From: a virus
Taxonomy: Duplodnaviria > Caudoviricetes
Strand: one strand, 5' to 3'
IMG/VR virus record: IMGVR_UViG_3300020395_000014
Coordinates: 1-54,522 of that record
DNA length: 54,522 nucleotides
Part shown: positions 15,764 through 41,890 of the stretch, piece after piece
Layout of the letters: every line of letters begins with the position of its first letter
How positions within the stretch are numbered: position 1 is the first letter of the stretch
The notes under the pieces: generated by a model
The model's input: the letters and a program-made list of their open reading frames with translations, nothing else
What the model was told of the DNA's origin: nothing
The model's database searches: none
Made by a program: the position numbers and the translations under genes

Positions 15764-16801
15764 ATGGCAATAGCACCCGTAAATAAGTTTATTAATATTG
15801 CTGTTCCAGTTTCTCCTGGATTGCAAAAAATATATGAGGTTCCAACTGGTAGTACATCTTTGTTGTTATATGCTCAAGTTGCAAATGTTGGTGTTGGCAT
15901 AACTTACCCAAAAGTTACATTTTTTCAAAGAAGAGAATCAAGAAGTACTGGTAATACAAGAGATGTAAGAATTATACAAGATGCAGAAATACCACCTAAT
16001 GATGCTTTAATATTAGTAGATGGTAGAATAGTTTTAGAAAAAACTCCTATAGTTCTTGATAGGGTTTATATTAAAGGTACTCAACAGAATGTTGGTATAG
16101 TTACTGGTGTTGATTATGATGAACCAACAGGAATTGCTACTGTAATGTGTAAAGAAAATCATGGATTTATTGCTGGAAATGAAGTTACTTTAGGTGGATT
16201 GTATTTTACTTGCTCATCATATTCTGGAATTACAACTAATGTTTTTCCAGACCCTCAACAATCTTATACTGTTGATAGTATAGTTGATAATGTTGGTATA
16301 TCAAGAACATTTTCAATGACTGTTGGAGGAGCAAGTGGTAATCCTCATACTTATAATTCTGCTTTACATAGATTCTCAAGAGCAAATTTTGAAGCAGTTG
16401 AAGTTATAAGTGGTGGTTCTTCTGGGTCTAAATTTAATGTTACTCATGCATTGTATAATGGAGATAATATTGCAAAAACTATGGAGGGTATTACTTTAGC
16501 ACCTGGAGAATTGGTATTGACTATAGGTGCTAATAGTTTATCTAATGGTGATAAAATTAAGATAGTGGATAATTCAGTATTCTTTAGATGCTCTATGGAT
16601 GATTATTATACGGAACATTCTTATCCACGAGATACTGATCCTGCTGGATCATCATCAACATCTACTAATGAACTAACAATTGCTGTTGTTGCTACTAATA
16701 GTAGTATAAGGGTTAATGTTGGTCAGAGTCGTGCTGGTGGATTTGTTGCTCCTTTGGAAATGGAATTAACTGCGAGTGTCTTAGAAAACAGTAATGTCTA
16801 A
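15764..16801 (+). CDS. virion structural protein
   Basis: Beta-rich; Y...TG..T.....HG...G..V.L.GL module typical of cyanomyovirus virion proteins. Confidence 0.6.
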   Translation: MAIAPVNKFINIAVPVSPGLQKIYEVPTGSTSLLLYAQVANVGVGITYPKVTFFQRRESRSTGNTRDVRIIQDAEIPPNDALILVDGRIVLEKTPIVLDRVYIKGTQQNVGIVTGVDYDEPTGIATVMCKENHGFIAGNEVTLGGLYFTCSSYSGITTNVFPDPQQSYTVDSIVDNVGISRTFSMTVGGASGNPHTYNSALHRFSRANFEAVEVISGGSSGSKFNVTHALYNGDNIAKTMEGITLAPGELVLTIGANSLSNGDKIKIVDNSVFFRCSMDDYYTEHSYPRDTDPAGSSSTSTNELTIAVVATNSSIRVNVGQSRAGGFVAPLEMELTASVLENSNV

Positions 16802-19163
16802 GAAGTATATTAGCGGTAGGGCTAAACGAACCCCCCAAGATCAATTAAAGGACGATAGGTATAGGTATCTTGGATTAGAACAGGCAGAGCCTAATCTTGC
16901 CGATCCTATAACTAGCCCTCCTGTTCCTTCTGGACAACAGTATCAGTTGGTTTCTGTTCCTGGTTTTGAGGGTAAAAGATATTGGGTTCCTGTTGGTGGT
17001 GGAGTAATTCCAGGTGCTATTAGTGTATATGATGAAGGTATTCTTGTTAGTGCTGCAAGTAGTATAACCCAACTTAATTTTGTAGGTGCAGCAGTAACGG
17101 CTCAAGTAGATGTTCAACATCCTTCTGGTCATCCAGGTATTGCTGCAACTGTAACAGTTATTCCTGTTACTATAGGAGAAGATCCTCCATTAGATCCAAA
17201 TCATGGTGAATTGTGGTGGGAAAATGATCATGGTGATTTGTGTATTTACTATGATGATGGTGATAGTAGTCAATGGGTAACAGTAATTGCTGGTGGTGGA
17301 GTTGGTCCTCCAGGTCCTCCAGGTTCTCCTGGACCAGGTGGTGGTCCTCCTGGACCTCCTGGACCTCCAGGTTCTGGTGGTGGTGATGGAAGTCCAGGTG
17401 AAGATGGTCCTCCTGGTCCTCCTGGTCCTCCAGGTGGTCCTCCTGGACCTCCTGGACCTCCAGGTTCTGGTGGTGGTGATGGTAATCCTGGTCCTCCTGG
17501 TCCTCCTGGACCTGGTGGTGGAACCATTGATAGTGTAAAGCAATACAGAACTCCTGGTGTAGAGAGGAGTTGTGAAAGTCCAGTATTTGTAGTTAATAAT
17601 GATACTATTGGTATTGGATCTACAAGTAATGCTTACGGAAATAGATTTTCTCAAGAGGAAGATCCAACAACTGCTCCTGGTGGTAGTTGGACTGTTTGTG
17701 ATGGTGATTTATGGTATGATACTTCAGCAACTTCAGGATCTGCTTCTGGTAGCGGTATTTCTTTAAATATAAATCTTCAAGATATTTTATCATTATCTAA
17801 TGATGGAGAACTTAGTGCTGATGATGCAAATGCGGATAATATAGTTTTTTGGGATGATTCTGAATCAAAATTAACATATTTAACTCTTGGTACAAATTTA
17901 TCAATCACTGGTAATACAATTAATGCTTCTGGTGGTGGAGTAACTGATGGAGATAAAGGAGATATAACCGTATCAAATGCTGGTACAAATTCTGAGAATT
18001 GGAATATTGATGCTGATACTGTTGGTACTACTGAATTATCTGCAACAGGTACAGCAGATGCTACAACATTCTTGAGAGGAGATAATACTTGGCAGCCTAT
18101 TAGTGGTATTGGTGGTGGAGGTGGTAGTCCAGGTGGTTCAACAACATTTCTTGGACTTACTGATACACCAAATTCATTTACTGCTAATAAGTGGTTAAAG
18201 GTAAATTCTAATGGAGATGCTCTTGAATGGACAGATGCTCCTACTGGTGCTACTGTAACTACTGATGATGTTCCACCAAGCAATCCTTCTGATGGCGATC
18301 TTTGGTGGGATTCTGTCAATGGTATTTTAAATGTATATTATGAAGATGCTGATAGTTCACAATGGGTTAATGCCAGTGGTAGAGGTACAGGTGGTAGTGG
18401 AGGTAGTGGTCTTAGTGTAGTTACTGATGATGTTCCACCAAGTAATCCTTCTGACGGTGATCTTTGGTGGGATTCTGTCAATGGTGAGTTAAAGGTATAT
18501 TACGAAGACGTTGATAGTTCTCAGTGGGTTGATGCTAGTGGCGGTGGTGCAGAAGGTCCACCTGGTCCTCCTGGTGCTGATTCAACTGTAGAAGGTCCAC
18601 CTGGTCCTCCTGGTACTCCTGGCGGTCCACCTGGTCCACCTGGTCCTCCTGGTGCTGATTCAACTGTAGAAGGTCCACCTGGTCCTCCTGGTGCTGATTC
18701 AACTGTAGAAGGTCCGCCTGGTCCTCCTGGTGCTGATTCAACTGTAGAAGGTCCGCCTGGTCCTCCTGGTGCTGATTCAACTACTCCTGGACCTCCAGGT
18801 CCACCAGGAGGTGGAGCATTAGTAACTACTGATGATGTTCCTCCAAGTAATCCTTCTGATGGTGATCTTTGGTGGAATTCTGTTGATGGTATTTTAAATG
18901 TATACTATCAAGATGCTGATAGTTCTCAGTGGGTTAATGCCAGTGGTAGGGGTACAGGAAGTGGCGGTGGTGGTACATCAGTAACTACTGATGATACTCC
19001 TCCAAGTAACCCTTCTGATGGTGATTTATGGTGGGATTCGGATACAGGTGAGTTAAAGATATATTATCAAGATGTTGATAGTTCTCAGTGGGTTGATGCT
19101 GCTAGTGGAGGAAGTTCTTCTGGCACTGGTATGTTTAGATCTAATTGGGATATGCCCCTCTAA
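16794..19163 (+). CDS. collagen-like fibre scaffold with five DGDLWW domains plus one half-domain
   Basis: GPP repeats; five P..P..G(D/E)LWW.....L..YY.D..SSQWV copies; ends MFRSNWDMPL. Confidence 0.8.
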   Translation: MSKKYISGRAKRTPQDQLKDDRYRYLGLEQAEPNLADPITSPPVPSGQQYQLVSVPGFEGKRYWVPVGGGVIPGAISVYDEGILVSAASSITQLNFVGAAVTAQVDVQHPSGHPGIAATVTVIPVTIGEDPPLDPNHGELWWENDHGDLCIYYDDGDSSQWVTVIAGGGVGPPGPPGSPGPGGGPPGPPGPPGSGGGDGSPGEDGPPGPPGPPGGPPGPPGPPGSGGGDGNPGPPGPPGPGGGTIDSVKQYRTPGVERSCESPVFVVNNDTIGIGSTSNAYGNRFSQEEDPTTAPGGSWTVCDGDLWYDTSATSGSASGSGISLNINLQDILSLSNDGELSADDANADNIVFWDDSESKLTYLTLGTNLSITGNTINASGGGVTDGDKGDITVSNAGTNSENWNIDADTVGTTELSATGTADATTFLRGDNTWQPISGIGGGGGSPGGSTTFLGLTDTPNSFTANKWLKVNSNGDALEWTDAPTGATVTTDDVPPSNPSDGDLWWDSVNGILNVYYEDADSSQWVNASGRGTGGSGGSGLSVVTDDVPPSNPSDGDLWWDSVNGELKVYYEDVDSSQWVDASGGGAEGPPGPPGADSTVEGPPGPPGTPGGPPGPPGPPGADSTVEGPPGPPGADSTVEGPPGPPGADSTVEGPPGPPGADSTTPGPPGPPGGGALVTTDDVPPSNPSDGDLWWNSVDGILNVYYQDADSSQWVNASGRGTGSGGGGTSVTTDDTPPSNPSDGDLWWDSDTGELKIYYQDVDSSQWVDAASGGSSSGTGMFRSNWDMPL
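18552..18783 (+). repeat. 39-bp tandem repeat encoding [13 protein letters not shown]
   Basis: gaaggtcc(a/g)cctggtcctcctggtgctgattcaactgta repeated about 5 times with one interruption. Confidence 0.9.
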
Positions 19164-19166
19164 ATA
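19160..19166 (+). promoter_or_regulatory. late promoter CTAAATA overlapping the upstream stop codon
   Basis: ctaaatagtaaacagga...attatggcagcaacagt; same context recurs at 38938. Confidence 0.7.
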
Positions 19167-19187
19167 GTAAACAGGAATTAGAATATT

Positions 19188-19577
19188 ATGGCAGCAACAG
19201 TCTTAACAGGAACAATACCTAATGGTGGTAGTTTTAGTTACACCAATAATACTGGTGGAAATGTTAGATTTATAGTTTATCTTTTAAGTGCTGGCTATAG
19301 CAATGGTAGTAGTGCAGCTGGAACATTTAGAATTGGTGGTTCAGGTAATAATGGGGTACAATGGACTCTATATGAAACCACTAATGTTGGTAAATATGTA
19401 GCTAACGGGGGGTCCGCAGCATTTCCACATGGATTTGCAAAACAAAATGAAGGAGAACCATTTCCAGTTGAATTTATGTTAGGTGATGGTCATTCTGTTA
19501 ACTGGAATCCACCAACAGCAACTAGTTGGTTTTCTAATCCAAAATATAATTTTGTGGTGATACCAGAAAATGGATAA
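19188..19577 (+). CDS. small beta-rich virion protein (paralog of 38967..39341)
   Basis: MAATV..G....SYTN.TG.NVR ... EF.L.DGH ... YN.VVIPE.G shared with the 38967 ORF. Confidence 0.75.
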   Translation: MAATVLTGTIPNGGSFSYTNNTGGNVRFIVYLLSAGYSNGSSAAGTFRIGGSGNNGVQWTLYETTNVGKYVANGGSAAFPHGFAKQNEGEPFPVEFMLGDGHSVNWNPPTATSWFSNPKYNFVVIPENG

Positions 19578-19581
19578 CAAA

Positions 19582-19588
19582 ATAAATA
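19582..19588 (+). promoter_or_regulatory. late promoter ATAAATA
   Basis: Intergenic, before the GTG start at 19615. Confidence 0.65.
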
Positions 19589-19614
19589 CTTTCACATTAA
19601 GAGGTTAAAAATAG

Positions 19615-22600
19615 GTGGCAATAAATTTTCCAAATAGTCCAAGTACCAACGCAAGTCATACTGAAAATGGTTTGACTTGGATTTATGATGGAACTACTTG
19701 GAATTTACAAACAACTATACAATCTGGTGCAACTACATTTACTGGTTTAACTGATACTCCAGGTTCTTATACTGCTGATAAATGGGTTAAGGTAAATGCT
19801 GCAGGAACTGGTATTGAATTAGTTTCTGCTCCTTCTGGTGGTGGAGTAACTGATGGAGATAAAGGTGATATAACTGTATCAGCTTCTGGTGCTACTTGGA
19901 ATATTGATGCTGGTACTGTTGGTACTACCGAATTATCTGCAACGGGAACAAAAGACGCTACAACATTTTTAAGAGGGGATAATACTTGGCAACTTATTAG
20001 TAGTATTACTGGTAGTGGTAGTGTATCTGATGGAGATAAAGGTGATATTACTGTATCAAACTCTGGTGCTACTTGGAGTATTGATGATGATGCTGTTGAT
20101 TCAGCAGAAATAGCAAGTGGTGCTGTAGATCTTGACCATTTATCTGCAACTGGTACGAAAAGCAATACAACATATTTAAGAGGAGATAATACTTGGGCAA
20201 CTATTACTGCTGGTAGTGGTAGTGTATCTGATGGAGATTATGGAGATATAACAGTATCATCTTCAGGTGCAAATTGGAATATTGATGCCGATACTATTGG
20301 TACTACTGAATTATCTGCTACAGGAACAAAAGATGCAACAACATTTTTAAGAGGGGATAATACTTGGCAACTTATTAGTAGTATTAGTGGTGGCGGTGGT
20401 GTATCAGTAACTACTGACGACACTCCTCCAAGTAACCCTTCTGATGGAGATCTTTGGTGGGATTCTGTTGCTGGTGTCTTAAATGTATATTATCAAGATG
20501 CAGATAGTTCTCAGTGGGTTAATGCTTCTGGTAGTCATGGTGGTGCTAATGTAGTTACTGATGATACACCACCTTCTAATCCTAATGACGGTGATCTTTG
20601 GTGGGATTCTAATAATGGTGAGTTAAAAATATATTATGAAGATGTTGATAGTTCTCAGTGGGTTGATGCTGGTGGAGGCGGTGGATCAGGTGGTGCAAAT
20701 TCTGTACAAGTACCAGTATTTGATCAATCAGAAACTACTACTGGATCTTCATTTAATGGTACAGCAACCCGTGTTGATTTTGCTAATAATCCTGCTAGTG
20801 ATCGTCATGTAGATGTTAAGTTTGAAAAATTAAATAATAATGATATATATGAATTTAAACTTGAATATTTTTCTAGTGGTACTAACAGTTATAAAGGATG
20901 GTATCTGGCTGATAAGCAATCTACAGGAATTGATGGTAATAACACTGCAGATGGACAACGTAAGATATCAGGAAAATTACCCAGTGGTCAAAGATGGAAA
21001 GCTTATAGTCAAACCCAAGATGCATCTGCTGGTGCTACTTTCTGGTTAGAGGGAGATTCCCAAGGTAATACTACTCTTCCAGGTTGGGATTGGCCATCAA
21101 CAGGTCTTGCAACAGAGTGGGATCCACAAACTCCAGGTACCTATGGTGGTATAGACACTTTTCATATCGTCATTGACATGCCACGTAAGAAGATGTGGAT
21201 CAAAGAGTACAATGAATCATATGAAGAGGGTTATGGACTCTGGTTACATGCACATAATCATCCTGCACATGCACTTAGTGTCGTTGATCCTACGTCAACC
21301 CCATCAATTTTTATAAGAGATACTGGAACTGGTGAATATTATTTCAGTGTTGGTATGTTTATACCAAGTGATGGTCAGGCATATTGTACTATGGAACCTA
21401 TACCAGAACAGTACAGTGCGTTCCGTAATCTTAGTGGAAGCAGTAGTTCTAGTAGTTCTGGTTCAACTACATTTACTGGTTTAACTGATACTCCAGGTTC
21501 TTATACTGCTGATAAGTGGTTAAAGGTTAATGCTGCTGGAACTGCCCTTGAATTTACTAATGAACCCAGTAGTGGTGTTACAGATAAGATAGAAGAAGGT
21601 GATAGTAAGGTCGAAGTAATTGATACTGGAACTGATGGAAGAGTTATAATCACAATTGATGGTGAAGAAAAGTTTAAATTTGATGAGGCTGCTCATGGGA
21701 TGGGCGGTCATTTTACAGTCAATGGTGGTGGTTTATCTGGAGAAGGGGCAAAAGTAACTTTAGATAGTGGTGATGGTACTGGTAGTGTAAGTTTCTTTAA
21801 TGCTGCAACTACTGGAGGTACTGAGACTTATAGTTTACCAACAGCATATCCAACTGATGATGGACAGATTCTATCATCAACTATGGCTGGAGTTATGTCA
21901 TGGGTAGATGATAATAGTGGTACTACTGCTACAGATAATATTTTTGAATCCAATAGTAAAGTAGAAGTAATTGATACTGGAACTGATGGAAGGGTTATAA
22001 TCACACTTGATGGTGAAGAAAAGTTTAAATTTGATGAGGCTGCTGATGGAAAAGGTGGTTGGCTTACAGTCAATGGTGGTGGTGTATCTGGAGAAGGTGC
22101 AAAATTAACTTTAGAGAGTGGTGATGGTAGTGGTGGTATAAGTTTCTTTAATTCAAAAACTACTTCAGGTAGTGAAAGTTATAATTTACCATTAGCATAT
22201 CCAACTGTTAGTGGATATGTTTTATCAGCAACTACTACTGGTGATATGTCATGGGTTGCTAATTCAGGTGGTAGTGGTCTTCAAAATATTGTAGAAGATC
22301 TTACACCACAGTTGGGTGGTAAGTTAGATACTAATACTCATAATATTGATTTTACTGATGATTCTGCTGCTTATTTTGGTGGATTCAGTTCATCTTATGG
22401 TTATGGATTATCTCTACATCATGACCCTAATAATGTTAATGGAAATATTTCTTTTATAGACGATAGGAGTTATAATGGTCTCCATATCATGTATGGAACT
22501 TCAACTGATTCTTTCGGTAATTATGTAAGTAAGGTATTATTTAAACAAAGAACGGGAAATGGTATTCCAGCATATGATCTAAAGGTATGGAATAGTGGTG

Positions 22601-25600
22601 TTCAACCACGTAATATCCTTGATAAGGATACTGAAGCAGGAACAGCAGGTCAAATATTAAGTGCTACTGGTCTTGGGGGTCTTGATGGGTTAGATTGGAT
22701 TAATAATAATTTCTTAACTCTTAGTGATACACCAAGTACATTTACTGCTAATAAGTGGTTAAAGGTTAATGCTGCTGGAAATGCTCTTGAATGGGCTAAT
22801 GAACCTACTGGTAGTGATACTAATACAACTTATAGTATATCTTGTGCTGATGGTGACAATGCAGATGAAGAAAAGATTAGATTAACTGCTGGTGGTGATG
22901 GTAGTGGAACTGATGATATAGTTTTAGAAGCTGGTACTGGATTATCAATAGCAAGGTCTGGAGATAAAATTACACTTACAAATACTGTAAGTAATACAAA
23001 TACACAATTATCAACTGAACAAGTTCAGGACATTGTTGGTGCAATGGTTGATGGTGGAACTGAAACCAGAATAGGTGTAACATATGATGATACAACAGGA
23101 AAACTTGGTTTTGTTGTTGATGATATGACTGGAGGAAGTGTTCAAGATAAGATACAAGAAGGTACTACAGTTGCAGAGGTATATCAAGCTGGTGGTGGAA
23201 CAGGAAAATTCACTGTTGATATAGAAGGTACAGAAGCAATTGCAATTGATGCAAATCGTCAAATATTAATTAGTGGTAATCAGACTGGAGATAATATAGC
23301 AAAAATTTATAATTCTGATGATGGAACAGGTGGTGGTGTACTTGGAATATATGCTTCATCAAATAATGCTACTCCAAGAGATGTAAGATTCTATAGTGGT
23401 GGTGGTACAGCAAATGAGACATTCCGTATAGGAAAAGATGGTGAAATACATTCATTTGGAAGAATGACCTTTAAGCATCTTGATTCAAGTTTAGAGGGTG
23501 GACAAATATCCTTTGAGAATATTGTTGGTGATAGAGTATATTCAATTGATGCTTATGGAAATAGCAATGCTAATTCTATTATTAGAATTATTGATGAACA
23601 AACATTGACTGGAGGTGTAGGTACTCAAAGATTCTGTGTTAATAGATCTGGTGCTTTCGGAATTGGTAATGTAGGAAATGAAGATTATGGAGCTTCAGGT
23701 AAGGTATTATTGAGTCAAGGAGCGACTCAACCACCTAAATGGGAAACTGTTTCTGGTGTTCCTGCTGCTGCTGGTGGATCTAATAATCAGTTCCAATATA
23801 ATAGCAGTTCATCACTTGCTGGAAGTGATATACTTGTAATGACTAATGATACAGGATATACTGGTAGTGGTCCAAGTTTAACTATTGATGGATCTGGTGG
23901 TAGTGGTGGTGGTTTTGGTAATATTACTTGGGAACCTGGTATTAATGGATTATCTTTCACAAGAGATGCATTCGCACTTTGGGGAGCACCTGATAATAAC
24001 ACAATAAATATGAAAGCTAGTATTGGTTATTCTAGCTCTGTTCAAAGATGGATTCTGAATAACCCTGATACTGGGGGTATGAGTATTGAGAGTAGAGGTG
24101 ATGTAATATTTCAAAAACAGAACAGTCCTAACACTGTTCATATGGTTATTAACCAGACTACTGGTGTTGAGATTAAGAATAGTTTAGATTTATCAACTGC
24201 TACTATTAAAGATAAAGATGGTGACGTAGGAACTCCAGGACAAGTATTAAGTTCAACTTCAACTGGAGTTGATTGGATTACTGTTTCTGGTGGGGGTGGA
24301 TCACCATCTACTCCAGGTGGTAGTGATACCCATGTACAATTTAATAATGATTCTTCATTTGGTGGTGATTCTACGTTTACCTTTGATACTTCTTTATCTA
24401 CAAATACATTAACACTTGAAGGTGCATTCAATTTAGCAGCAGATAGTAGTGCTACTGGTACTGGTGCTAGGATAACTGTTGGTGCTGGTGGAGAATTAGA
24501 AATATTCCATACTTCTAATAACACCTCTGGTATAAGAAGTTCTGGTACTGGTGTATTTGCTATCCAGAATAATAATCAAACTGGTAATAACAATTGGAAT
24601 AAAGCAATACAAATCCAAGCATATGGTGATATTCAATTACGTCATATGACTGGTCCTGATGCCGTCTATTGTACTGCTGGAGGATCTGTTGGTTTATATT
24701 ATAGTGGACAAGGTCCTAAATTAGAGACCACTGCAACGGGAATAAAAGTTAATGGTACTATTGAGACTGGTGGTAATATACCTGTTGTTAATGTAACTAA
24801 TTGGTCAAGTACTGCTGATGATAATGCAGGTACATCAAAATCAGGAACTATTAATAGAGCTGCTTTTGAGAAAGCAATACAGTCTTTATCTAGTACTGGT
24901 GGTATTCTATACGTTCCTCATGGAGATTATCCAATAACTGGCACAATAAATTTACATAATGGAACTTACTATTCAACAGTTAATAGTATGAAGTATAGTT
25001 TTGATGGTGAGGAACAACCTACTATTACTTTACAGAAGGGTGGTACTTATAAATTTGATATGTCAGATAGTACTAATAATAATCATCCATTAAGATTTTC
25101 AACAACTGCTGATGGTACTCATGGTGGTGGTACTGAATATACTACTGGAGTAACTCAGGTTGGTACTCCAGGTCAGGCAGGTGCATATACACAAATAACG
25201 GTAGATGCAAGTGCTCCAGTAACTTTATATTATTATTGTCAACAACATAGTAATATGGGAGGAACTAGTAATATTTCTGATTCATCTGGAGGACCTTTAG
25301 GTGATGGTGGTGGTATAGTTATAATGGGACCAAATTATAGAATTGGTTCTGCTGATTTAGAAGGAGCAAGATTAATATCACAAAACGCTACTGATGATAT
25401 ATTTAAAATAACTAATGTAAGAAATGTAGAAATTAAACAGTTAACATTTGATTCTGCAGTTACAAGAACTGCTGGTGCTGCTATTCATTGTCATTCTACT
25501 ACAAATACTCAACAGATTAAACTTGAGAGACTTTATATTAGACAACACTTTAGTGGAATTAAAATGGATGGACACTCTATTTCAATTCTTAGAGATATTG

Positions 25601-26466
25601 AAATTAGACATATTCCTGATGTAGCAAATTCGTTTGGTCTTCAGTTTAGTGCATCTGCAGGTGGTTCAGAAAAAATAGATCAAATAAGATGTCAAAATGT
25701 TCTTATTGATGGTGATGTACTTGGCGGTAATTCAAATAATGGTAATGCAAGTAATAATACGGTGGGAATTCAAATAAAAGATAGGGTAAATTCAATATGG
25801 TTTGATCATTGTGTATCTAATCGTTGTAAAATTGGATTCTTAATGGATTCATCTGTTCCTAGTGGATCAACAACTAATCCTGGAGCATTCTTCAGATTGA
25901 ATGATTGTGATTTTGATACTAATAGTTTATGTGGTATTTCTATTGAGGGTGGTAGTTTTATTTGGATTAATTCTCCATACATTGGTAGTAATAAGAAAAA
26001 TGGACTTAGAACCACCTCTGGTTTTACAGGTGTATTAAGAATAAATGATGCTGATTGTAGAGGTAATGGTGATCATGGAATTAATATTCAAAGTACAAGT
26101 CATAAGAAGATATTCATTAATAACCCACAATGTTGTGAGAATGGTTCAACAGTGTGGGGTGAAACTAATGTTTCTGATGGTATTCGTGCTGCTTCTCCAT
26201 CAAATGATATTCAGATAATAGGTGGACAATGTGGTGGTGATAATATGGGAGGAACTGGAGGTAATCAAACCAATGCAAGTAGAATGCAATCTCGTGGTAT
26301 TGCGTTAGGTGCTCTTTGTAATAGATGTACTGTAGCATTCGTTGATTGTAGTGATAATAAAGATGATGCACTTGATTTTCCAACTAGTAATGGTACTAAT
26401 AATTGGATTCTTGGTGTTGCTGGTCATCACAGTGGAGCTGATGTTAGGGGTACATGGCCAGGATAG
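19615..26466 (+). CDS. 2283-aa modular tail fibre/tailspike with C-terminal pectin-lyase-like beta-helix
   Basis: MAINFPNSP head; shared shaft modules; AFEKAI....GG.LYVP.G.Y.I beta-helix cap followed by beta-helix-like rungs; SPRY-like and cupredoxin-like inserts. Confidence 0.85.
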   Translation: MAINFPNSPSTNASHTENGLTWIYDGTTWNLQTTIQSGATTFTGLTDTPGSYTADKWVKVNAAGTGIELVSAPSGGGVTDGDKGDITVSASGATWNIDAGTVGTTELSATGTKDATTFLRGDNTWQLISSITGSGSVSDGDKGDITVSNSGATWSIDDDAVDSAEIASGAVDLDHLSATGTKSNTTYLRGDNTWATITAGSGSVSDGDYGDITVSSSGANWNIDADTIGTTELSATGTKDATTFLRGDNTWQLISSISGGGGVSVTTDDTPPSNPSDGDLWWDSVAGVLNVYYQDADSSQWVNASGSHGGANVVTDDTPPSNPNDGDLWWDSNNGELKIYYEDVDSSQWVDAGGGGGSGGANSVQVPVFDQSETTTGSSFNGTATRVDFANNPASDRHVDVKFEKLNNNDIYEFKLEYFSSGTNSYKGWYLADKQSTGIDGNNTADGQRKISGKLPSGQRWKAYSQTQDASAGATFWLEGDSQGNTTLPGWDWPSTGLATEWDPQTPGTYGGIDTFHIVIDMPRKKMWIKEYNESYEEGYGLWLHAHNHPAHALSVVDPTSTPSIFIRDTGTGEYYFSVGMFIPSDGQAYCTMEPIPEQYSAFRNLSGSSSSSSSGSTTFTGLTDTPGSYTADKWLKVNAAGTALEFTNEPSSGVTDKIEEGDSKVEVIDTGTDGRVIITIDGEEKFKFDEAAHGMGGHFTVNGGGLSGEGAKVTLDSGDGTGSVSFFNAATTGGTETYSLPTAYPTDDGQILSSTMAGVMSWVDDNSGTTATDNIFESNSKVEVIDTGTDGRVIITLDGEEKFKFDEAADGKGGWLTVNGGGVSGEGAKLTLESGDGSGGISFFNSKTTSGSESYNLPLAYPTVSGYVLSATTTGDMSWVANSGGSGLQNIVEDLTPQLGGKLDTNTHNIDFTDDSAAYFGGFSSSYGYGLSLHHDPNNVNGNISFIDDRSYNGLHIMYGTSTDSFGNYVSKVLFKQRTGNGIPAYDLKVWNSGVQPRNILDKDTEAGTAGQILSATGLGGLDGLDWINNNFLTLSDTPSTFTANKWLKVNAAGNALEWANEPTGSDTNTTYSISCADGDNADEEKIRLTAGGDGSGTDDIVLEAGTGLSIARSGDKITLTNTVSNTNTQLSTEQVQDIVGAMVDGGTETRIGVTYDDTTGKLGFVVDDMTGGSVQDKIQEGTTVAEVYQAGGGTGKFTVDIEGTEAIAIDANRQILISGNQTGDNIAKIYNSDDGTGGGVLGIYASSNNATPRDVRFYSGGGTANETFRIGKDGEIHSFGRMTFKHLDSSLEGGQISFENIVGDRVYSIDAYGNSNANSIIRIIDEQTLTGGVGTQRFCVNRSGAFGIGNVGNEDYGASGKVLLSQGATQPPKWETVSGVPAAAGGSNNQFQYNSSSSLAGSDILVMTNDTGYTGSGPSLTIDGSGGSGGGFGNITWEPGINGLSFTRDAFALWGAPDNNTINMKASIGYSSSVQRWILNNPDTGGMSIESRGDVIFQKQNSPNTVHMVINQTTGVEIKNSLDLSTATIKDKDGDVGTPGQVLSSTSTGVDWITVSGGGGSPSTPGGSDTHVQFNNDSSFGGDSTFTFDTSLSTNTLTLEGAFNLAADSSATGTGARITVGAGGELEIFHTSNNTSGIRSSGTGVFAIQNNNQTGNNNWNKAIQIQAYGDIQLRHMTGPDAVYCTAGGSVGLYYSGQGPKLETTATGIKVNGTIETGGNIPVVNVTNWSSTADDNAGTSKSGTINRAAFEKAIQSLSSTGGILYVPHGDYPITGTINLHNGTYYSTVNSMKYSFDGEEQPTITLQKGGTYKFDMSDSTNNNHPLRFSTTADGTHGGGTEYTTGVTQVGTPGQAGAYTQITVDASAPVTLYYYCQQHSNMGGTSNISDSSGGPLGDGGGIVIMGPNYRIGSADLEGARLISQNATDDIFKITNVRNVEIKQLTFDSAVTRTAGAAIHCHSTTNTQQIKLERLYIRQHFSGIKMDGHSISILRDIEIRHIPDVANSFGLQFSASAGGSEKIDQIRCQNVLIDGDVLGGNSNNGNASNNTVGIQIKDRVNSIWFDHCVSNRCKIGFLMDSSVPSGSTTNPGAFFRLNDCDFDTNSLCGISIEGGSFIWINSPYIGSNKKNGLRTTSGFTGVLRINDADCRGNGDHGINIQSTSHKKIFINNPQCCENGSTVWGETNVSDGIRAASPSNDIQIIGGQCGGDNMGGTGGNQTNASRMQSRGIALGALCNRCTVAFVDCSDNKDDALDFPTSNGTNNWILGVAGHHSGADVRGTWPG

Positions 26467-36427: not shown

Positions 36428-38155
36428 ATGGCAGTTAAGATAAGGAAGGATGGTCAGTGGGTAACTATTAGTGGCGATGCTGCTGTTGGTCCTCCTGGTC
36501 CCGCAGCAAGTTTAAACGCAGGAACTACATCTACTGCTTCTGCTGGAACTCCTGCATCAGTTACTAATACTGGTACTGCTTCTGCTGCTGTATTTGATTT
36601 TGTTATACCAGCAGGTGCTGATTCTACAGTTCCTGGTCCTCCTGGTCCTCCAGGAACTCCAGGTAATGATGGTAATGATGGTACTGATGGTACTCCAGGA
36701 ACACCAGGATCAAATGGTACTAATGGTGTTGATGGAACACCAGGAAATAATGGAGATGATGGACCTCCTGGTCCTCCAGGACCTCCAAATGGACCTCCTG
36801 GACCTCCTGGTGGTGATGGAACACCAGGTAGTCCTGGACCTCCTGGTCCTGCTGGTGGTCCTCCTGGACCTCCTGGACCTGCTGGTGATGATGGCACTCC
36901 AGGTAATGATGGTACTCCAGGAACTGATGGAAACCCTGGTCCTCCAGGATCTGCAGGAGGTGATGGTAGTGGATGGACAGGTGGTACATATGCTTCTTCT
37001 ACAGGAAAAGTAACATTTACATCAACTGATGGTCTTGGTTTTGTAACTGGAGATTTAAGAGGTACTGATGGAAATCCTGGACCTCCAGGAACTGATGGAG
37101 ATGATGGAACTCCAGGTGCTGCAGCAACTATAGCAGCAGGACCTACAACAACTGTTGCTGCTGGAACTCCTGCATCAGTTACTAATAGTGGTACTTCTTC
37201 TGCTGCTATATTTGATTTTAGTATACCTCAAGGTTCTTCTGGACCTCCTGGTCCTCCTGGAACTGATGGTGATGATGGTACTCCAGGTACTAATGGTAAT
37301 GATGGAACCCCAGGTACTAATGGTAATGATGGAAACCCAGGATCTGATGGAAATCCAGGATCTGATGGAAACCCTGGTCCTCCAGGTCCTCCAGGTTCTG
37401 CAGGAGATGATGGTCCTCCAGGTGGTGCTGGAAACCCAGGTCCTCCAGGTCCTCCAGGAACTGCAGGAGATACTGGAATACCTACTGGTGTTATTTTAAT
37501 TTGGTCTGGTGCATCAAACGCTATCCCTTCTGGGTGGACACTTTGTGATGGTAATAATAGTACACCAAATTTAACTGATAGATTTGTACTTGGTGCAGGT
37601 AATAGTTATTCTGTTGATGCTACTGGTGGTAGTAAAGATGCTGTAGTTGTTTCTCACAATCATTCTGCTTCATCTTCATCTTCATCTTCTTTAAGTGGTA
37701 CGAATCATACACACTCATTCTCAGATTCTTTCTCTGCATCTGGATCTCATGACCATTCATTTTCAGGATCTGGATCCGATTCGCATAGTCATGGTGTTAC
37801 TGTAAGTGATTCTGGTCACCAACATTATATGCCAGCACCAGCGTATAATACTCTTTGGGGACAACAATCTTATACGTATCCTGCTTGGGGTAGTATGCAG
37901 AATATGTACAGTGGTAGTGGATCTGCTAACGTTAGTGGTAGTTCTGGAAGTGAAACCGTATCAATATCTGTATCTGGTAGTACAAGTAATGAAAGTGTAA
38001 GTATATCTGGATCTGTATCTGGTAATACAGGTAATCCTTCTGCAACTCCTTCTGTAAGTACATCTACATCTACATCTGTTGGTAGTGAAGGTGTTAGTGG
38101 AACTGATAAAAACTTGCCACCATACTATGCTTTATGTTATATTATGAAAACCTAA
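36428..38155 (+). CDS. collagen-like fibre with tail-collar domain and HxH needle tip
   Basis: Gly-X-Y repeats; IP.G.I..WSG....IP.GW.LCDG...TPNL.DRF..GA collar; five HxH motifs; [12 protein letters not shown] end. Confidence 0.88.
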
Positions 38156-38157
38156 GA

Positions 38158-38164
38158 ATAAATA
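38158..38164 (+). promoter_or_regulatory. late promoter ATAAATA
   Basis: Intergenic, 21 nt before the ATG at 38186. Confidence 0.65.
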
Positions 38165-38185
38165 AGAGAGGTATAATAGTACAGA

Positions 38186-38941
38186 ATGTCGAACCATATT
38201 GATTTTCCTAATAGTCCTACTATAAATGAGACTTACCAATATGGTAGTGCTATATGGAAGTGGGATGGTGTAGTATGGAGAAGAATCGACGGTGCTGGAA
38301 ATACAGGTGCTCCTGGACCTGAAGGTCCTCCAGGACCTGGTGGATTAACTGGTCCTCCAGGTACTCCTGGAACTCCTGGTGATGATGGGGATGAAGGTCC
38401 TCCTGGTCCTCCAGGTCCTCCAAATGGACCTCCTGGACCTCCAGGTCCCGATGGAGATGATGGAACTCCTGGTAATCCTGGTCCTCCAGGAACTGGAAGT
38501 CCAGGTACTCCTGGTACTCCTGGAACTCCTGGACCTCCAGGTGAAGATGGTAATCCTGGACCTCCTGGTCCTGCTGGTGGTCCTCCTGGTCCTCCAGGAA
38601 ACCCAGGTCCTCCTGGTCCTCCCTCTCCTGGACCTCCAGGTCCTGATGGAGATGATGGAACTCCTGGTACTCCAGGTACTCCTGGACCTCCTGGTCCTGC
38701 AGGTATTGCTGGACTACAAATCAGTGAAACTCCACCAACTTCTCCTGCACCTTCAGAGGGTGATTTGTGGTGGGAAAGTGACACTGGAGCATTATATGTG
38801 TATTATAATGATGGTAATAGTGATCAATGGGTAGCAGTAGCACAAGGTCCTGCTGGATCTCCTGGTCCTCCAGGTTCTGCTGCTGGTAGTGGTGCTGGTC
38901 CATTTGAAAGTCAATGGCATATTCCAATGGGATTGCCATAA
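38186..38941 (+). CDS. short collagen-like fibre/adaptor (FPNSP head, one GDLWW domain)
   Basis: IDFPNSP...WKWDG..W; GPP repeats; [19 protein letters not shown]...QWV; ends [12 protein letters not shown]. Confidence 0.82.
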
Positions 38942-38944
38942 ATA
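38938..38944 (+). promoter_or_regulatory. late promoter ATAAATA overlapping the upstream stop codon
   Basis: Same context as 19160. Confidence 0.7.
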
Positions 38945-38966
38945 GTAAACAGGAAATTAAAAGATT

Positions 38967-39341
38967 ATGGCAGCAACAGTATATTCAGGATCGGGTAATT
39001 GGAGTTATACCAATAGCACTGGTGAGAATGTTCGTGTGATTATTGGTATTGCTCTTGCAGCAGATAATTCTCAAGCATCGACTGTTGGTATTAAATTGAG
39101 ATTTGGATCAGCTGGATCTGGTTATATGTTTGAAGAAACTAGTGGAACTAATGATAGATTTGTAGGTTTTGGTAAACATATTACAAGTTCTGGTCAAATG
39201 ACCAGAGCTGTAGCAACTAATGGTGGAACTTTTGTAGATGAATTTTGGCTTGCAGATGGACATACTGCTAATTTAGATGCTGTTAGTGGTTCGTACCCTA
39301 TTAAATGGTACAATATAGTGGTGATACCAGAGAGTGGATAA
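38967..39341 (+). CDS. small beta-rich virion protein (paralog of 19188..19577)
   Basis: Shared N- and C-terminal motifs with the 19188 ORF. Confidence 0.75.
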   Translation: MAATVYSGSGNWSYTNSTGENVRVIIGIALAADNSQASTVGIKLRFGSAGSGYMFEETSGTNDRFVGFGKHITSSGQMTRAVATNGGTFVDEFWLADGHTANLDAVSGSYPIKWYNIVVIPESG

Positions 39342-40819
39342 TGGCAGCATTTGATTTTCCAAATAGTCCTGAACTAGACGAGACTCATACCGAAAATGGT
39401 GTGATGTGGAAGTGGAATGGGTATGCTTGGGATAGAGTTCCAAGTAATGGACCTGAAGGTCCTCCTGGTCCTCCTGGTCCTGCAACTCCTGGACCTCCTG
39501 GTCCTCCAGGAACTGGTAACCCTGGTCCTCCTGGTCCTCCAGGAAATACTCCAGGACCTCCTGGTCCTCCTGGTCCTCCAGGCACTGGTGGTGGTGCAGG
39601 AACATTTTTAGAATTAACAGATACTCCTGATACTTCTCCTGGATATTCTGGACAATCTGGTAAAACAGTTAAAGTAAATTCGGGAGAAACTGCTTTAGAG
39701 TTTACTCCATTAGATTCTGGTCCTCCAGGACCTCCTGGTAATCCTGGTCCTCCAGGAGAAGATTCAACTACACCAGGTCCTCCTGGTCCTCCAGGCAGTG
39801 GTCCTCCTGGTCCTCCAGGTGAAGATGGTGAGGATGGTACTCCTGGAACTGGTAATCCTGGTCCTCCTGGTCCTCCAGGAACTGGAACTCCTGGTCCTCC
39901 TGGTCCTCCAGGTACTAATGTCGATACAACTTATTCATATACTGTTGAAAATGCTGGCGGTGGAAATGTTAATTTAAAATTAGACGGAACAGAAAATACT
40001 TCATCCGCAACTGATTATACTATTAAATTCAATGCTGGAACTGCTCTTACAAATTCAGTTCAGAGTCAGAATGAATTTACAATGAATCTGGATAATACTG
40101 CTGTAACTCCTGACTCATATACTAATGCAAACATAACTGTTGACCAACAAGGTAGAATAACAGCAGCATCGAATGGTTCTGCTGGTGGTGGCGGTGGTGG
40201 TGCAAATTTACAAACATTTACATCATCTGGAACTTGGACAAAACCATCTGGATATAGTCATTTTTGGGTAATTTGTATTGGTGGAGGTGGTGGATCTGGT
40301 GGTGCTAATGCACAAGATGATGATGGATGTGATGGTGGTGCTACTGGTGGTGGTGGAGCTGGTGGTATGGGTATGTGGATTTATGCTGCATCAAGTTTAC
40401 CTGCTTCAATGTCTGTAACTGTCGGAACTGGTGGAGGTGGTGGTTCCTCTGGTGGTGGATGGGTTGGTGGAACTGGTGGAACTGGTGGAACAACAACATT
40501 TGGAAATACTGGTCTTTATGGTGCAGGTGGTACTGGAAGTAGTGGAACAGATTACTCTCCTAATACTAGAGTATCTGAGGGTGGTACTGGTGGAGCAGGT
40601 AATGGTTTTGGGATGAATGGTGCAAATGGTGGAGATGGTAATATGGCCACAAGTGCTGGTAATACTACTGTCGATGAACATGCTGCAAGAGCTCAAGGTG
40701 GAATGTCTGCTTGGGGTGGTAGAAGTTATGGAGAAGGTGCAGATGGTGTTGTAACCTGTGATCAGAATACTTCTGGTAATTCTGGATCAAATGGGTGTAT
40801 AATGGTATTTGGTTTTTAA
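39341..40819 (+). CDS. collagen-like fibre with Gly-rich C-terminal domain
   Basis: Start coupled by TAATG ([10 protein letters not shown]...WKWNG..W); GPP repeats; V.P.SYT.ANITVD..GRIT.AS; FTSSGTW.KP.G.....V..IGGGGG domain. Confidence 0.85.
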
Positions 40820-40831
40820 GAGGTAATTAAA

Positions 40832-41251
40832 ATGGGTAGGTATGCTATTATTGAAAATAATATAGTAACAAACATTATAGAATGGGATGGTAATACAACT
40901 ACTTGGACACCTCCTACTGGATCTGTTCAGGTTGCTTTAGCAGCAACTGGAATTGCAGATGGTGTTGGTGTTGGGCAATCTTATTTTGAATCAACAATTG
41001 TAGTTCCACAACCAGTAGATTTACGTACTACAAGTGACCATTATAAACAACTTAGAATGAAAAGAAATAAAAAATTATCTGCTTCAGATTGGACTCAATA
41101 TCCTGATTCCCCATTAGATTCTACTAAGAAAGCAGAATGGAGTACATACAGACAGGAATTAAGAGATTTGCCAGCAAATGTTACTGATAGTAATGTAAAG
41201 GATATCGCATATAAAGCATCACATTCATCTTGGCCAACAAAACCATCATAA
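40832..41251 (+). CDS. tail fibre assembly chaperone
   Basis: YA.I....V.N.I.W N-terminus; LR..RN..L..SDWTQ..D.PL......W..YRQ.LRDLP....WP.KP C-terminus. Confidence 0.85.
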   Translation: MGRYAIIENNIVTNIIEWDGNTTTWTPPTGSVQVALAATGIADGVGVGQSYFESTIVVPQPVDLRTTSDHYKQLRMKRNKKLSASDWTQYPDSPLDSTKKAEWSTYRQELRDLPANVTDSNVKDIAYKASHSSWPTKPS

Positions 41252-41290
41252 ATGTGTTATAATAATTATTATTAATATTTGGCATTTGTA

Positions 41291-41890
41291 ATGAATGATT
41301 TAATACAAATTATTAAAATTCTTAGTGATGAAGATTTAAAAATAATTAATAAGCATATAGACGAAACATGTGAATTTAAAAAAGCGACTGTTTTTAGTGG
41401 AAATATAAAAAATAAAGCTAAAGTTGATACTACTATAAGATCAAGTGTTTCAACATCATTAGTTGATGGTGATGAAGCGACTAATCTTTTACATGATAGA
41501 ATCAATTCTGCTTTAGTTGATTATAAATTTAAAGTATCAAAATTATGTCAGAATTTTACATATTATCCTGTTCCTGGTGGTAGAGGCACAAAATCTTGGA
41601 GAGAAAGTATACAGATACTTGAATATAGTGGTGGACAAGAGTATAAATTTCATCACGATGCTGCTCAAAGACCACAATTACCTGAATATGAAAGAAAAAT
41701 ATCTGTGATTGTTTATTTGTCTAATGGATTTGAGGGAGGTGGAACAGAATTTCCACATGCAACTTTTAAACCAAAGGCAGGGTATGGTTTAATTTTTCCT
41801 TCTAATTGGTGTTATCCACATTCGGGTCAATCTGTAACTAAGGGTAAGAAAAGAGTAGCAGTTACATGGTATTATGTAACATTATCTTGA
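41291..41890 (+). CDS. 2OG-Fe(II) oxygenase, prolyl 4-hydroxylase-like
   Basis: E..Q...Y..GQ.Y..H.D; YL....EGG.T.FP; H.G..V..G.K......W; ATG at 41291 preferred over TTG at 41279. Confidence 0.88.
   Translation: MNDLIQIIKILSDEDLKIINKHIDETCEFKKATVFSGNIKNKAKVDTTIRSSVSTSLVDGDEATNLLHDRINSALVDYKFKVSKLCQNFTYYPVPGGRGTKSWRESIQILEYSGGQEYKFHHDAAQRPQLPEYERKISVIVYLSNGFEGGGTEFPHATFKPKAGYGLIFPSNWCYPHSGQSVTKGKKRVAVTWYYVTLS

What the first reader, a model, noticed from the sequence alone, without database searches (positions are those of the whole stretch)
19130..19577. Duplicated C-terminal peptide + late promoter + small cap-protein cassette (second copy 38895-39341)
Seen: two collagen genes end in a similar short peptide ([23 protein letters not shown]). 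Each stop codon is part of a TAAATA late promoter, followed by the near-identical spacer gtaaacagga..tta.aa.attatggcagcaacagt and a ~125-aa protein with conserved ends (MAATV...SYTN.TG.NVR; EF.L.DGH; YN.VVIPE.G) and a divergent middle. Inference: F.S.W..P is a docking tag for a separately encoded, variable receptor-binding cap, functionally like T-even gp37/gp38 but with a different protein family.
Basis: partly seen in the sequence, partly recalled or inferred. Interest (0 to 1): 0.75.

Follow-up and report, generated by a model that had tools for sequence, protein, structure and literature searches.

The report
Swappable head proteins for phage fibres
In an uncultured ocean T4-like phage and its relatives, tail-fibre genes that end in a short conserved peptide always sit next to a small, fast-changing gene that probably supplies the fibre's detachable host-binding tip.

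Summary
Two paralogous small genes (19188-19577, 129 aa; 38967-39341, 124 aa; 34% identical) each follow a collagen-like tail-fibre gene ending in F-x-S-x-W-x-[IM]-P. The stop codon lies inside TAAATA, and a near-identical 24-25 nt spacer follows.

The small proteins ("caps") form an undescribed viral family with no Pfam, PHROG, NCBIfam or PDB sequence match. The AF2 model is an eight-strand jelly roll (pLDDT 83). Both ends are conserved and the middle is hypervariable and rich in indels.

In 106 related contigs plus the window there are 117 cap genes or tandem cap arrays. All 107 with readable flanks abut a gene ending in the peptide: 73 co-directional and 34 convergent. Ten are cut off by contig ends.

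Caps diverge much faster than their fibres (median 37% against 68% identity). One relative is about 97-100% identical to the window on both sides of the cap, yet its cap is only 43% identical.

Best reading (about 0.55): a peptide tag plus a separately encoded, exchangeable fibre-tip head, analogous to T2/S16 gp38 but not homologous to it. Physical binding, presence in virions and receptor binding are untested. The complex prediction never ran. The main rival is an assembly chaperone.

The parts
16794..19163 (+). Fibre gene 1 (789 aa). It has collagen-like Gly-X-Y runs and repeated DLWW..YY.D..SQWV hairpin modules. It has no globular C-terminal domain: the last module is followed by a Gly/Ser linker and the tag.
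   Evidence: Translation. PHROG tail-fibre hits, phrog_9729 at E 4.7e-58.
19131..19160 (+). C-terminal tag 1, MFRSNWDMPL (core F-x-S-x-W-x-M-P-L).
   Evidence: The same core ends every cap-adjacent gene in related loci.
19161..19187 (+). Junction 1: stop TAA inside TAAATA (19161-19166, a T4-type late-promoter-like core), AGGA at 19173-19176, then 11 nt to the ATG.
   Evidence: Of 32 distinct co-directional junctions, 26 (+1 read by hand) share this layout, and 21 of the 26 have AGG in the spacer. Promoter function is inferred from the T4 consensus TATAAATA, which I recalled.
19188..19577 (+). Cap gene 1 (129 aa, P0001). Predicted eight-strand jelly roll with conserved N- and C-terminal strands and a variable middle.
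   Evidence: It is replaced as a cassette in relative L038.
19615..26466 (+). Next fibre gene (2283 aa, GTG start). It begins with the (I)NFPNSP...W.Y.G..W N-terminal hairpin seen after almost all co-directional caps.
   Evidence: phrog_3449. 33 of 34 distinct downstream genes start this way, 26 strictly and 7 as variants.
38186..38941 (+). Fibre gene 2 (251 aa): N-terminal hairpin, a long collagen-like run, one DLWW..YY.D..QWV module, a linker and the tag.
   Evidence: Pfam Collagen PF01391 at E 2.4e-17. Tail-fibre PHROGs.
38900..38938 (+). C-terminal tag 2, [13 protein letters not shown].
   Evidence: An identical tag and cap occur in L007 and L008.
38939..38966 (+). Junction 2: stop TAA inside CATAAATA, followed by GTAAACAGGAAATTAAAAGATT.
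38967..39341 (+). Cap gene 2 (124 aa, P0002), a paralogue of cap 1.
   Evidence: phmmer finds 62 representative clusters at E<=1e-3.
39341..40819 (+). Next fibre gene (492 aa). Its ATG overlaps the cap stop (TAATG) and it begins [10 protein letters not shown]...W.W.G..W.
   Evidence: phrog_863, phrog_3449.

Best explanation
This is a two-part fibre end.

Some tail-fibre proteins of this T4-like marine phage lineage have no globular C-terminal tip. They end in a flexible Gly/Pro/Ser/Ala linker and a short conserved aromatic-proline peptide: F-x-[ST]-x(1-2)-[W/F]-x-[IM]-P-[LIVF].

A separately encoded late protein of about 125 aa, the 'cap', is proposed to recognise that peptide through its conserved N- and C-terminal strands. 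It would stay on the fibre as the distal head. Its hypervariable, indel-rich middle loops would face outward and bind the host surface.

The tag, the stop/TAAATA junction and the first codons (MAATV) are conserved at the DNA level. Caps can therefore be exchanged between phages as cassettes, changing the tip without touching the fibre shaft.

Shown here:
- The pairing of tag and cap.
- The fold class and the variability pattern.
- The late-promoter-like motif.
- The cassette replacement.

Inferred:
- Physical docking.
- Presence in the virion.
- Receptor binding.
- Stoichiometry.
For: 1. Coupling.
- There are 134 cap ORFs in 107 sources (106 loci plus the window), forming 117 arrays.
- 73 arrays have a co-directional upstream gene ending in the tag, and 34 have a convergent gene ending in the tag whose stop abuts the cap stop.
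- 10 arrays have the needed flank off the contig. None of the 107 evaluable arrays lacks a tag (hand checks).
- After removing identical arrays, 85 of 85 evaluable arrays carry it.
- In L020 the tag sits on a separate 68-aa ORF, 3 nt from the cap stop.

2. Specificity.
- Of 240 non-cap ORFs >=120 aa in six frames (24 loci plus the window), 28 end in the motif. All 28 lie <=20 nt from a cap.
- A peptide-only scan of IMG/VR found 21 matches. It returned 2 new loci, and both have caps right behind the tag.

3. Tag type follows cap clade, not gene order. 34 of 35 GF-type tags go with one cap clade (SH-aLRT 95). That clade contains both convergent and co-directional arrangements (quick tree).

4. 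Tagged fibres stop right after the last hairpin module plus linker. A neighbouring untagged fibre carries its own C-terminal domain of roughly 120 aa.

5. The cap has conserved ends and a variable middle. One member has an insertion of roughly 230 aa rich in glycine. The AF2 model is an eight-strand jelly roll (pLDDT 83, pTM 0.79).

6. Caps change faster than their fibres.
- In 99 cassette pairs with fibre tails >=60% identical, the cap is the less conserved partner in 93. Medians are 68% against 37%. These pairs are not independent.
- The window and L038 are 54-60/60 identical per DNA bin from 18750 to 19169 and 47-60/60 (mostly 55-60) from 19578 to 19997. Across the cap they are only 13-47/60.
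- Conversely, near-identical caps in L003 and L004 follow unrelated shafts.

7. Caps look like late genes. The stop lies within TAAATA in 26 (+1) of 32 distinct junctions. TATAAATA lies within 80 nt upstream in 19 of 23 distinct convergent cases.

8. A conventional tail-fibre-assembly PHROG hit lies elsewhere in the window (40832-41251).
Against: - There is no direct evidence of binding. The complex prediction never ran (see Tried and rejected).
- There is no virion proteomics. The family is absent from cultured phages in the collection searched.
- The fold is a generic jelly roll. The top VIA-align Z of 8.7 is within the range the tool calls common, and Foldseek found nothing at E<=1e-3 in the PDB. 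The fold therefore does not point to receptor binding.
- A gene immediately after a fibre gene with its own strong promoter is also the classic place for an assembly chaperone.
- Tandem arrays (11 double, 3 triple) and fused two-domain caps do not fit a simple one-tag-one-cap picture.
- Tag-cap linkage is inherited together, so clade-wise covariation does not prove contact. Mutual information gave no clear contact pair.
- All loci except L030 and L031 were found through the cap. Tagged genes without caps could therefore exist unseen.
Confidence: 0.55

Rival explanations
1. Assembly chaperone or trimerisation nucleator only. The cap grips the three C-terminal tags to bring the chains into register, so that the collagen-like or beta-structured shaft can fold. 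It then leaves, or stays without any role in host recognition.
For: - The gene sits directly beside the fibre gene, as for T4 gp38, Tfa proteins and Pam3 gp25 (Pam3: abstract of PMC9608196).
- Its own late-promoter-like motif could serve a need for excess protein.
- Many tagged fibres are collagen-like. By general knowledge of collagens (recalled), these need a registration domain.
- The conserved tag looks like a generic handle.
Against: - A factor that only handles a conserved tag has no obvious reason for a hypervariable, indel-rich middle.
- It also has no obvious reason to be swapped behind a fibre tail that is 97% identical.
- Group-B tagged fibres are giant phrog_529 fibres, not collagen.
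- The model is all-beta, without the helical trimerisation domain described for Pam3 gp25 (abstract of PMC9608196).
- A conventional tail-fibre-assembly homologue is present elsewhere in the window.
- The two roles are not mutually exclusive.
Confidence: 0.22
2. Joint or hinge protein. The cap links the C-terminal tag of one fibre protein to the N-terminal hairpin of the fibre protein encoded next, like a knee piece in a multi-segment fibre.
For: - In co-directional loci, 33 of 34 distinct genes after the cap start with the FP.SP...W.W.G..W hairpin.
- Earlier scan notes propose hairpin-and-socket joints between fibre proteins in this and related phages. These notes are unchecked.
Against: - In 34 convergent loci no hairpin gene follows the cap.
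- A structural joint would be expected to be conserved, not the fastest-changing element of the locus.
- Arrays of 2-3 different caps are hard to place in a linear joint.
Confidence: 0.1
3. There is no protein-protein link. The conserved fibre C-terminus would be a by-product of DNA-level constraints of the promoter and ribosome-site junction, and the caps would be unrelated small late proteins.
For: The last tag codons and the stop overlap the TAAATA motif. The junction is conserved at synonymous sites.
Against: - The tag is kept in 34 convergent loci, where no cap promoter overlaps it.
- It is also kept in overlapping ATGA junctions that have no TAAATA.
- Conservation extends 8-10 residues upstream of the stop at the amino-acid level, with varied codons.
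Confidence: 0.03

Closest known systems
gp38 adhesin of T2/T6/S16-type Straboviridae phages, a separately encoded receptor-binding protein at the distal tip of the gp37 long tail fibre
   Same: - A small protein encoded right after the distal fibre gene.
- Conserved parts thought to hold it on the fibre, and hypervariable parts between them.
- Exchanged between related phages.
- The abstract of PMC12032242 (seen in the listing) describes gp38 as a modular, monomeric receptor-binding protein at the distal tail.
   Different: - No sequence similarity: no Pfam, PHROG, NCBIfam or PDB sequence hit.
- The predicted fold is an eight-strand jelly roll, not the glycine-rich sandwich I recall for gp38.
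- The partner fibre offers a short linear peptide after a flexible linker rather than a folded tip.
- Caps can occur as tandem arrays or as fused doublets.
Tail-fibre assembly chaperones (T4 gp38, lambda/Mu/P2 Tfa, cyanophage Pam3 gp25)
   Same: The gene is adjacent to the fibre gene. The protein acts on the distal end of a trimeric fibre. Pam3 gp25 has a non-conserved beta-sandwich domain that embraces the fibre tip at 3:3 (abstract of PMC9608196).
   Different: - No homology.
- No helical trimerisation domain in the model.
- The fibre end here is a conserved peptide, while the variable partner is the small protein. In chaperones that follow variable fibre tips the roles are the other way round.
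Collagen stalk with a jelly-roll head (C1q globular head; phage PRD1 spike P5). Recalled from general knowledge.
   Same: A collagen-like triple-helical stalk ending in a compact jelly-roll domain. C1q and TNF-family heads are among the fold matches at Z 6.8-7.6.
   Different: There the head is fused to the stalk chain. Here it would be a separate polypeptide held by a peptide tag. The fold matches are no better than matches to unrelated jelly rolls (Ena, GOLD, nucleoplasmin, CUB at Z 8.0-8.7), so no kinship is claimed.
Plug-and-socket or peptide-and-cap joints noted earlier in this scan for T4-like cyanophage fibre genes (e1-6348368, e1-5964982, e1-5726213)
   Same: Short terminal peptides or hairpins are proposed as connectors between separately encoded fibre parts in related phages.
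   Different: Those notes concern N-terminal hairpins with DLWW sockets, or Asp-Gly-Gly tails with N-terminal heads of the next fibre. None concerns this cap family (sequence look-up empty). They are unchecked AI notes.

Membership tests
gp38 adhesin (T2/T6/S16 type) | Sequence homology to the gp38 family | tested here: not met
   No Pfam family for P0001 or P0002 at E<=1. No family is matched by more than 2 of the 56 members. The profile search of PDB sequences gave 0 hits at E<=10.
gp38 adhesin (T2/T6/S16 type) | gp38-like fold | tested here: inconclusive
   The model is an eight-strand jelly roll. No gp38 entry appears among the listed Foldseek or VIA-align rows. A family that is not listed is not thereby excluded.
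gp38 adhesin (T2/T6/S16 type) | Encoded next to the distal fibre gene; conserved attachment part plus hypervariable segments | tested here: met
   Adjacency holds in 107 of 107 evaluable arrays. Entropy is 0.7-1.0 bits at the ends against 2.2-3.1 in the middle.
gp38 adhesin (T2/T6/S16 type) | Bound to the fibre tip in the virion and binds the receptor | not testable with these tools
   No cultured phage carries the family. The complex prediction did not run.
Tail-fibre assembly proteins (Tfa / Caudo_TAP, Pam3 gp25) | Sequence homology | tested here: not met
   No PHROG hit at E<=0.01, no Pfam hit and no NCBIfam hit.
Tail-fibre assembly proteins (Tfa / Caudo_TAP, Pam3 gp25) | Helical trimerisation or assembly domain (as stated for gp25 in the abstract of PMC9608196) | tested here: not met
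   The AF2 model has eight strands and no helix of 4 or more residues.
C1q/TNF-like jelly-roll heads | Fold similarity standing above other jelly rolls; trimeric assembly | tested here: inconclusive
   C1q and TNF-family chains score Z 6.8-7.6, below Ena, GOLD, nucleoplasmin and CUB at 8.0-8.7. The oligomeric state was not tested.
Collagen triple-helix repeat proteins (the fibre partner) | Gly-X-Y repeats matching Pfam Collagen | tested here: met
   P0004 matches PF01391 at E 2.4e-17, score 62.9 against a cut-off of 27.2. P0003 shows Gly-Pro-Pro runs in translation but gave no Pfam Collagen hit at E<=1.
T4-type late promoter (consensus TATAAATA, recalled) | Match to the octamer upstream of the gene | tested here: inconclusive
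   Cassette 2 has CATAAATA (7 of 8) and cassette 1 has TCTAAATA (6 of 8). Convergent relatives have the full TATAAATA in 19 of 23 distinct cases. Activity was not tested. TAAATA alone is common in DNA of 35.7% G+C.

The most novel reading that the evidence does not exclude
The tag and cap form a general 'click-on head' system for ocean T4-like phages. One conserved C-terminal peptide would let any of many jelly-roll heads be mounted on any tagged shaft (collagen-like, hairpin-repeat or giant phrog_529 fibre). Tandem arrays of 2-3 caps, or fused doublets, would give mixed or hetero-oligomeric heads on one fibre, C1q-like. The cap trimer would also act in trans as the registration nucleus that starts folding of the collagen triple helix. 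On this reading host range is rewired by single-gene cassette swaps at a conserved 40-nt junction.
Probability: 0.2. Interest if true: 0.8.

Novelty: new variant of a known kind. Interest (0 to 1): 0.62.

Why it matters
The host range of uncultured marine myoviruses is largely unreadable from sequence. If the caps are the fibre tips, they mark the exact genes where host specificity is set and exchanged.

The family is widespread:
- The metagenome scan confirmed 256 loci.
- phmmer found 62 clusters at 50% identity.
- An Atlas cluster holds 983 mostly viral members.
- This very locus is held at >=92% of its sampled words by 16 DNA runs listed. Four of these may be the source sample.

A short peptide tag that mounts interchangeable heads on a trimeric fibre would also be a simple natural scaffold for studying, and re-targeting in laboratory phage-host pairs, how fibres acquire new tips. 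It may also show how collagen-like phage fibres are registered without a fused C-terminal domain.

Tried and rejected
1. Complex prediction of fibre tail (A4) with cap (A6). The job never started.
   - Queue full.
   - Not sent on.
   - No usable answer.
   - Docking therefore remains untested, and nothing can be read from this.

2. AF2 model of a natural two-domain cap (P0017, alignment of 6). Mean pLDDT was 52.9, too poor to show how two cap domains pack.

3. Fold searches.
   - Foldseek against the PDB gave nothing at E<=1e-3.
   - BFVD gave two uncharacterised proteins at E<=1e-3.
   - VIA-align gave only generic jelly rolls.
   - No function can be drawn from the fold.

4. hhalign of the cap profile against the built-in C-terminal domain of a neighbouring untagged fibre (L005:3960-4349). 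Probability 0.4%, so no relation was detected.

5. Mutual information between tag positions and cap columns (50 W-type pairs). Only high-entropy columns scored and no convincing contact pair emerged.

6. RNA evidence. Four RNA-library runs held 6-10% of the sampled words. Their contigs lie on collagen repeats and the conserved 5' end of the cap at 90-95% likeness, that is, from relatives. None lies on the variable cap middle (39087-39321). This is not evidence for or against expression.

7. Cultured phages. tblastn of P0001 and P0010 found nothing. A group-B cap found only two unannotated single-cell-derived marine virus records. One of them (MH319737.1) shows the convergent tag-cap layout.

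8. Prokaryote genomes: none.

9. First single-protein scan of viral contigs: none. The alignment-based scan worked.

10. Search for fibre-cap fusions among longer proteins. The only hit was a cap with an internal Gly-rich insertion. The tool calls such a blank weak evidence.

11. Literature. Four keyword searches gave no description of this family. An unnamed family cannot be searched reliably by words.

12. The loosest tag regex also hit 20 ORF ends not next to caps. Examples are YYFSGSWRVA (4 times) and LTT[FY]RF.R.TMI (5 times). On inspection these do not resemble the tag. Out-of-frame translations of the convergent promoter region (FHSPPF..., LSTLFTYL) matched the loose regex and were removed as artefacts.
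Full report
**What the window is**

The window is a 54.5-kb virus record of 35.7% G+C, estimated to be about 22% of a genome. PHROG scans place it in the baseplate and tail-fibre module of a T4-like myovirus. Hits include gp32-like ssDNA-binding protein, baseplate wedge, tail-tube cap, hub and lysozyme, and a run of very large fibre genes. Its tail-tube-cap protein is closest, at only 42-43% identity, to single-cell-derived marine virus records and to Prochlorococcus phages P-SSM2 and P-SSM5. The host is therefore not known.

**The observation**

- Fibre gene 16794-19163 ends MFRSNWDMPL, and fibre gene 38186-38941 ends [13 protein letters not shown].
- In both, the TAA stop begins a TAAATA hexamer.
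- A 24 or 25 nt spacer (GTAAACAGGAA(A)TTA.AA.ATT) leads to ATGGCAGCAACAGT.
- The two small proteins (129 and 124 aa) are 34% identical (E 5e-15).
- The 15-mer at the junction occurs nowhere else in the window.
- A search of the window with P0001 finds exactly these two copies.

**The small proteins are a real, undescribed family**

- phmmer over 1.84 billion representatives gave 62 clusters at E<=1e-3.
- The word-index search gave 6 hits.
- IMG/VR gave 24 loci.
- The metagenome scan confirmed 256 loci, of which 80 were kept.
- The ESM Atlas holds a mostly viral cluster of 983 members.
- None of Pfam, PHROGs, NCBIfam or the PDB sequence set matches.
- No prokaryote genome of 185,579 species holds it.
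- Among deposited phages, only two unannotated marine single-cell-derived records hold it.

The family signature is MAA[TQ]V..G.GN.SYTN.TG.NVR.I...G[KR]...PTE..L..G......YN..VIPE.G.

AF2 with a 56-sequence alignment gives an eight-strand all-beta model (pLDDT 83, pTM 0.79). It aligns with many unrelated jelly rolls:
- Ena, GOLD, nucleoplasmin and CUB at Z 8.0-8.7.
- C1q and TNF-family chains at Z 6.8-7.6.

Foldseek finds nothing significant in the PDB. The fold class is informative, but no kinship or function follows from it.

Residues 1-30 and 121-129 are conserved, while 31-90 is variable and takes nearly all insertions. One member carries an insertion of roughly 230 aa rich in glycine at that place.

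**The key result: tag and cap always go together**

I collected 106 loci plus the window and found 134 cap ORFs. These form 117 arrays: 103 single, 11 double and 3 triple.

After regex classification and hand inspection of the residue:
- 73 arrays are directly preceded, on the same strand, by a gene ending in F-x-[ST]-x(1-2)-[W/F]-x-[IM]-[PS]-[LIVF], with 0-3 further residues.
- 34 arrays are met head-on by a gene on the other strand that ends in the same kind of peptide. A typical example is YPFTT[KR]GFS[IM]P[IL]. Its stop abuts the cap stop.
- 10 arrays have the needed flank off the contig.
- None of the 107 evaluable arrays lacks a tagged neighbour. After removing identical arrays the count is 85 of 85.

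Some loci are the same contig seen in both collections, so the deduplicated count is the safer one.

In the one convergent locus where the big fibre gene ends differently (L020), a separate 68-aa ORF ending PFTTIGFFIPI lies 3 nt from the cap stop. The convergent partners are giant fibres of phrog_529. That is the same family as window gene 42181-47829, which instead ends in a different C-terminal module.

The motif is specific.
- With the tighter pattern, 28 of 240 long non-cap ORFs end in it, and all 28 lie within 20 nt of a cap.
- A scan of all IMG/VR for the peptide alone found 21 matches. It returned two loci not found before, each with two tag-cap pairs.
- With the loosest pattern, 20 non-adjacent ORF ends also match, but they do not resemble the tag.

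One caveat remains. Nearly all loci were ascertained through the cap, so tagged genes without caps are under-sampled.

**What kind of fibres carry the tag**

They end with a hairpin module (DLWW..YY.D..QWV or LEYNGT.W.NK), a linker of roughly 5-25 residues rich in Gly, Pro, Ser and Ala, and then the tag. They have no globular C-terminal domain. A neighbouring untagged fibre has a C-terminal domain of its own, roughly 120 aa, which is not detectably related to the cap.

**Caps are the fast, exchangeable element**

Among 99 pairs of cassettes whose fibre tails (last 120 aa) are at least 60% identical, the cap is the less conserved partner in 93. Medians are 68% against 37%. The pairs share members and are not independent.

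The clearest case is the window against L038:
- DNA identity is 54-60 of 60 per bin from 18750 to 19169.
- It falls to 13-47 of 60 across 19170-19577.
- It returns to 47-60 of 60 (mostly 55-60) from 19578 to 19997.
- This is a cassette replacement bounded by the junction and the cap stop. The fibre tail is 97% identical and the cap 43%.

In L030 against L031, the fibres are 91% and 97% identical and their caps 64% and 87%. Conversely, nearly identical caps in L003 and L004 follow unrelated shafts.

On a quick tree, GF-type tags go with one cap clade (34 of 35 rows, SH-aLRT 95) whatever the gene orientation. The careful tree did not finish.

**Expression signals**

- The stop lies inside TAAATA in 26 (+1 read by hand) of 32 distinct co-directional junctions, with a 22-27 nt spacer. 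21 of the 26 have AGG in the spacer.
- Two junctions (+1 read by hand) overlap stop and start, and two are otherwise.
- Convergent caps have the full TATAAATA within 80 nt upstream in 19 of 23 distinct cases.

By analogy with the T4 late-promoter consensus (recalled), caps are late genes with their own promoter. Activity was not tested. RNA-library contigs were uninformative.

**Interpretation**

The pairing survives inversion of gene order, so it is not a by-product of the promoter overlapping the fibre's last codons. It argues for a protein-level link between tag and cap.

The best-supported mechanism is that the cap is the fibre's separately encoded distal head, held by the tag. The supporting points are:
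- Tagged fibres lack a tip domain.
- Caps have a conserved core with a hypervariable middle and large insertions.
- Caps are replaced behind unchanged fibres.
- A conventional fibre-assembly homologue lies elsewhere in the window (40832-41251).

This works like T2/S16 gp38 without being related to it (confidence about 0.55).

A pure assembly or registration chaperone is the main rival (about 0.22), and the two roles could coexist. A joint between successive fibre proteins is less likely (about 0.1), because the convergent loci have no following hairpin gene. In co-directional loci, however, 33 of 34 distinct downstream genes do start with the hairpin. Tandem arrays and fused doublets show that the stoichiometry is not simply one cap per tag and remain unexplained.

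**Novelty**

The kind of system is known: a small fibre-tip or fibre-assembly protein encoded beside the fibre gene. This protein family, the linear peptide tag, the orientation-independent pairing and the clean cassette junction are, as far as four keyword searches and four family libraries can show, not described.

Earlier notes of this scan describe other connector ideas in related phages but not this family.

Binding, virion presence and receptor recognition all remain to be shown. The complex prediction that would have been the first test could not be run.

Noticed in passing
window 42181-47829 (+), compared with L016:4391-8386 (-) and L021, L025, L026: The window's giant phrog_529 fibre ends ...LIPVLIEAIKELSAKVDALS. 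From memory this resembles C-terminal intramolecular-chaperone ends of phage fibres. Its homologues in the convergent loci end in the tag and meet a cap instead. The same shaft family therefore uses two different end modules.
   Followed up: partly
P0073 (metagenomic protein, 354 aa): A cap with normal N- and C-terminal ends but an insertion of roughly 230 aa full of GGxGG-type glycine runs in the variable middle. From memory this is reminiscent of the glycine-rich receptor-binding domains of other phage tips.
   Followed up: no
L015:2015-2812; proteins P0017, P0030, P0031, P0040, P0041; arrays in L006, L012, L017: Caps also occur as fused two-domain proteins and as tandem arrays of 2-3 divergent paralogues behind a single tagged fibre. 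How several caps share one tag is unexplained. The AF2 model of a fused form was too poor to help.
   Followed up: partly
window 40832-41251 (+): A 139-aa protein after fibre gene 39341-40819 matches tail-fibre-assembly and chaperone PHROGs (phrog_4912 at E 2.3e-17, phrog_4697 at E 8.7e-10). The phage therefore also has a conventional fibre chaperone.
   Followed up: no
L003:181-1317, L005:3231-4352, L042, L104: The fibre gene that follows some caps ends in a recurring ...YYFSGSWRVA, after a built-in C-terminal domain of roughly 120 aa. It matched only my loosest tag pattern and has no cap behind it.
   Followed up: partly
   Followed up: partly
window 41279-41890 (+): A 2OG-Fe(II) oxygenase-like gene (phrog_61, E 2.7e-38) sits inside the fibre gene cluster.
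   Followed up: no
window 38100-39500: This stretch is held at 92-99% of its sampled words by 16 DNA runs of marine metagenomes listed. Four of these may be the source sample. This suggests the phage is widespread.
   Followed up: no
L112 (MH319737.1:17819-21190): A public, unannotated record (Marine virus AG-345-E08) shows the convergent layout. TATAAATA precedes a cap at 19319-19690, and the opposite-strand gene ends ...YPFTTKGFPGSFA.
   Followed up: yes
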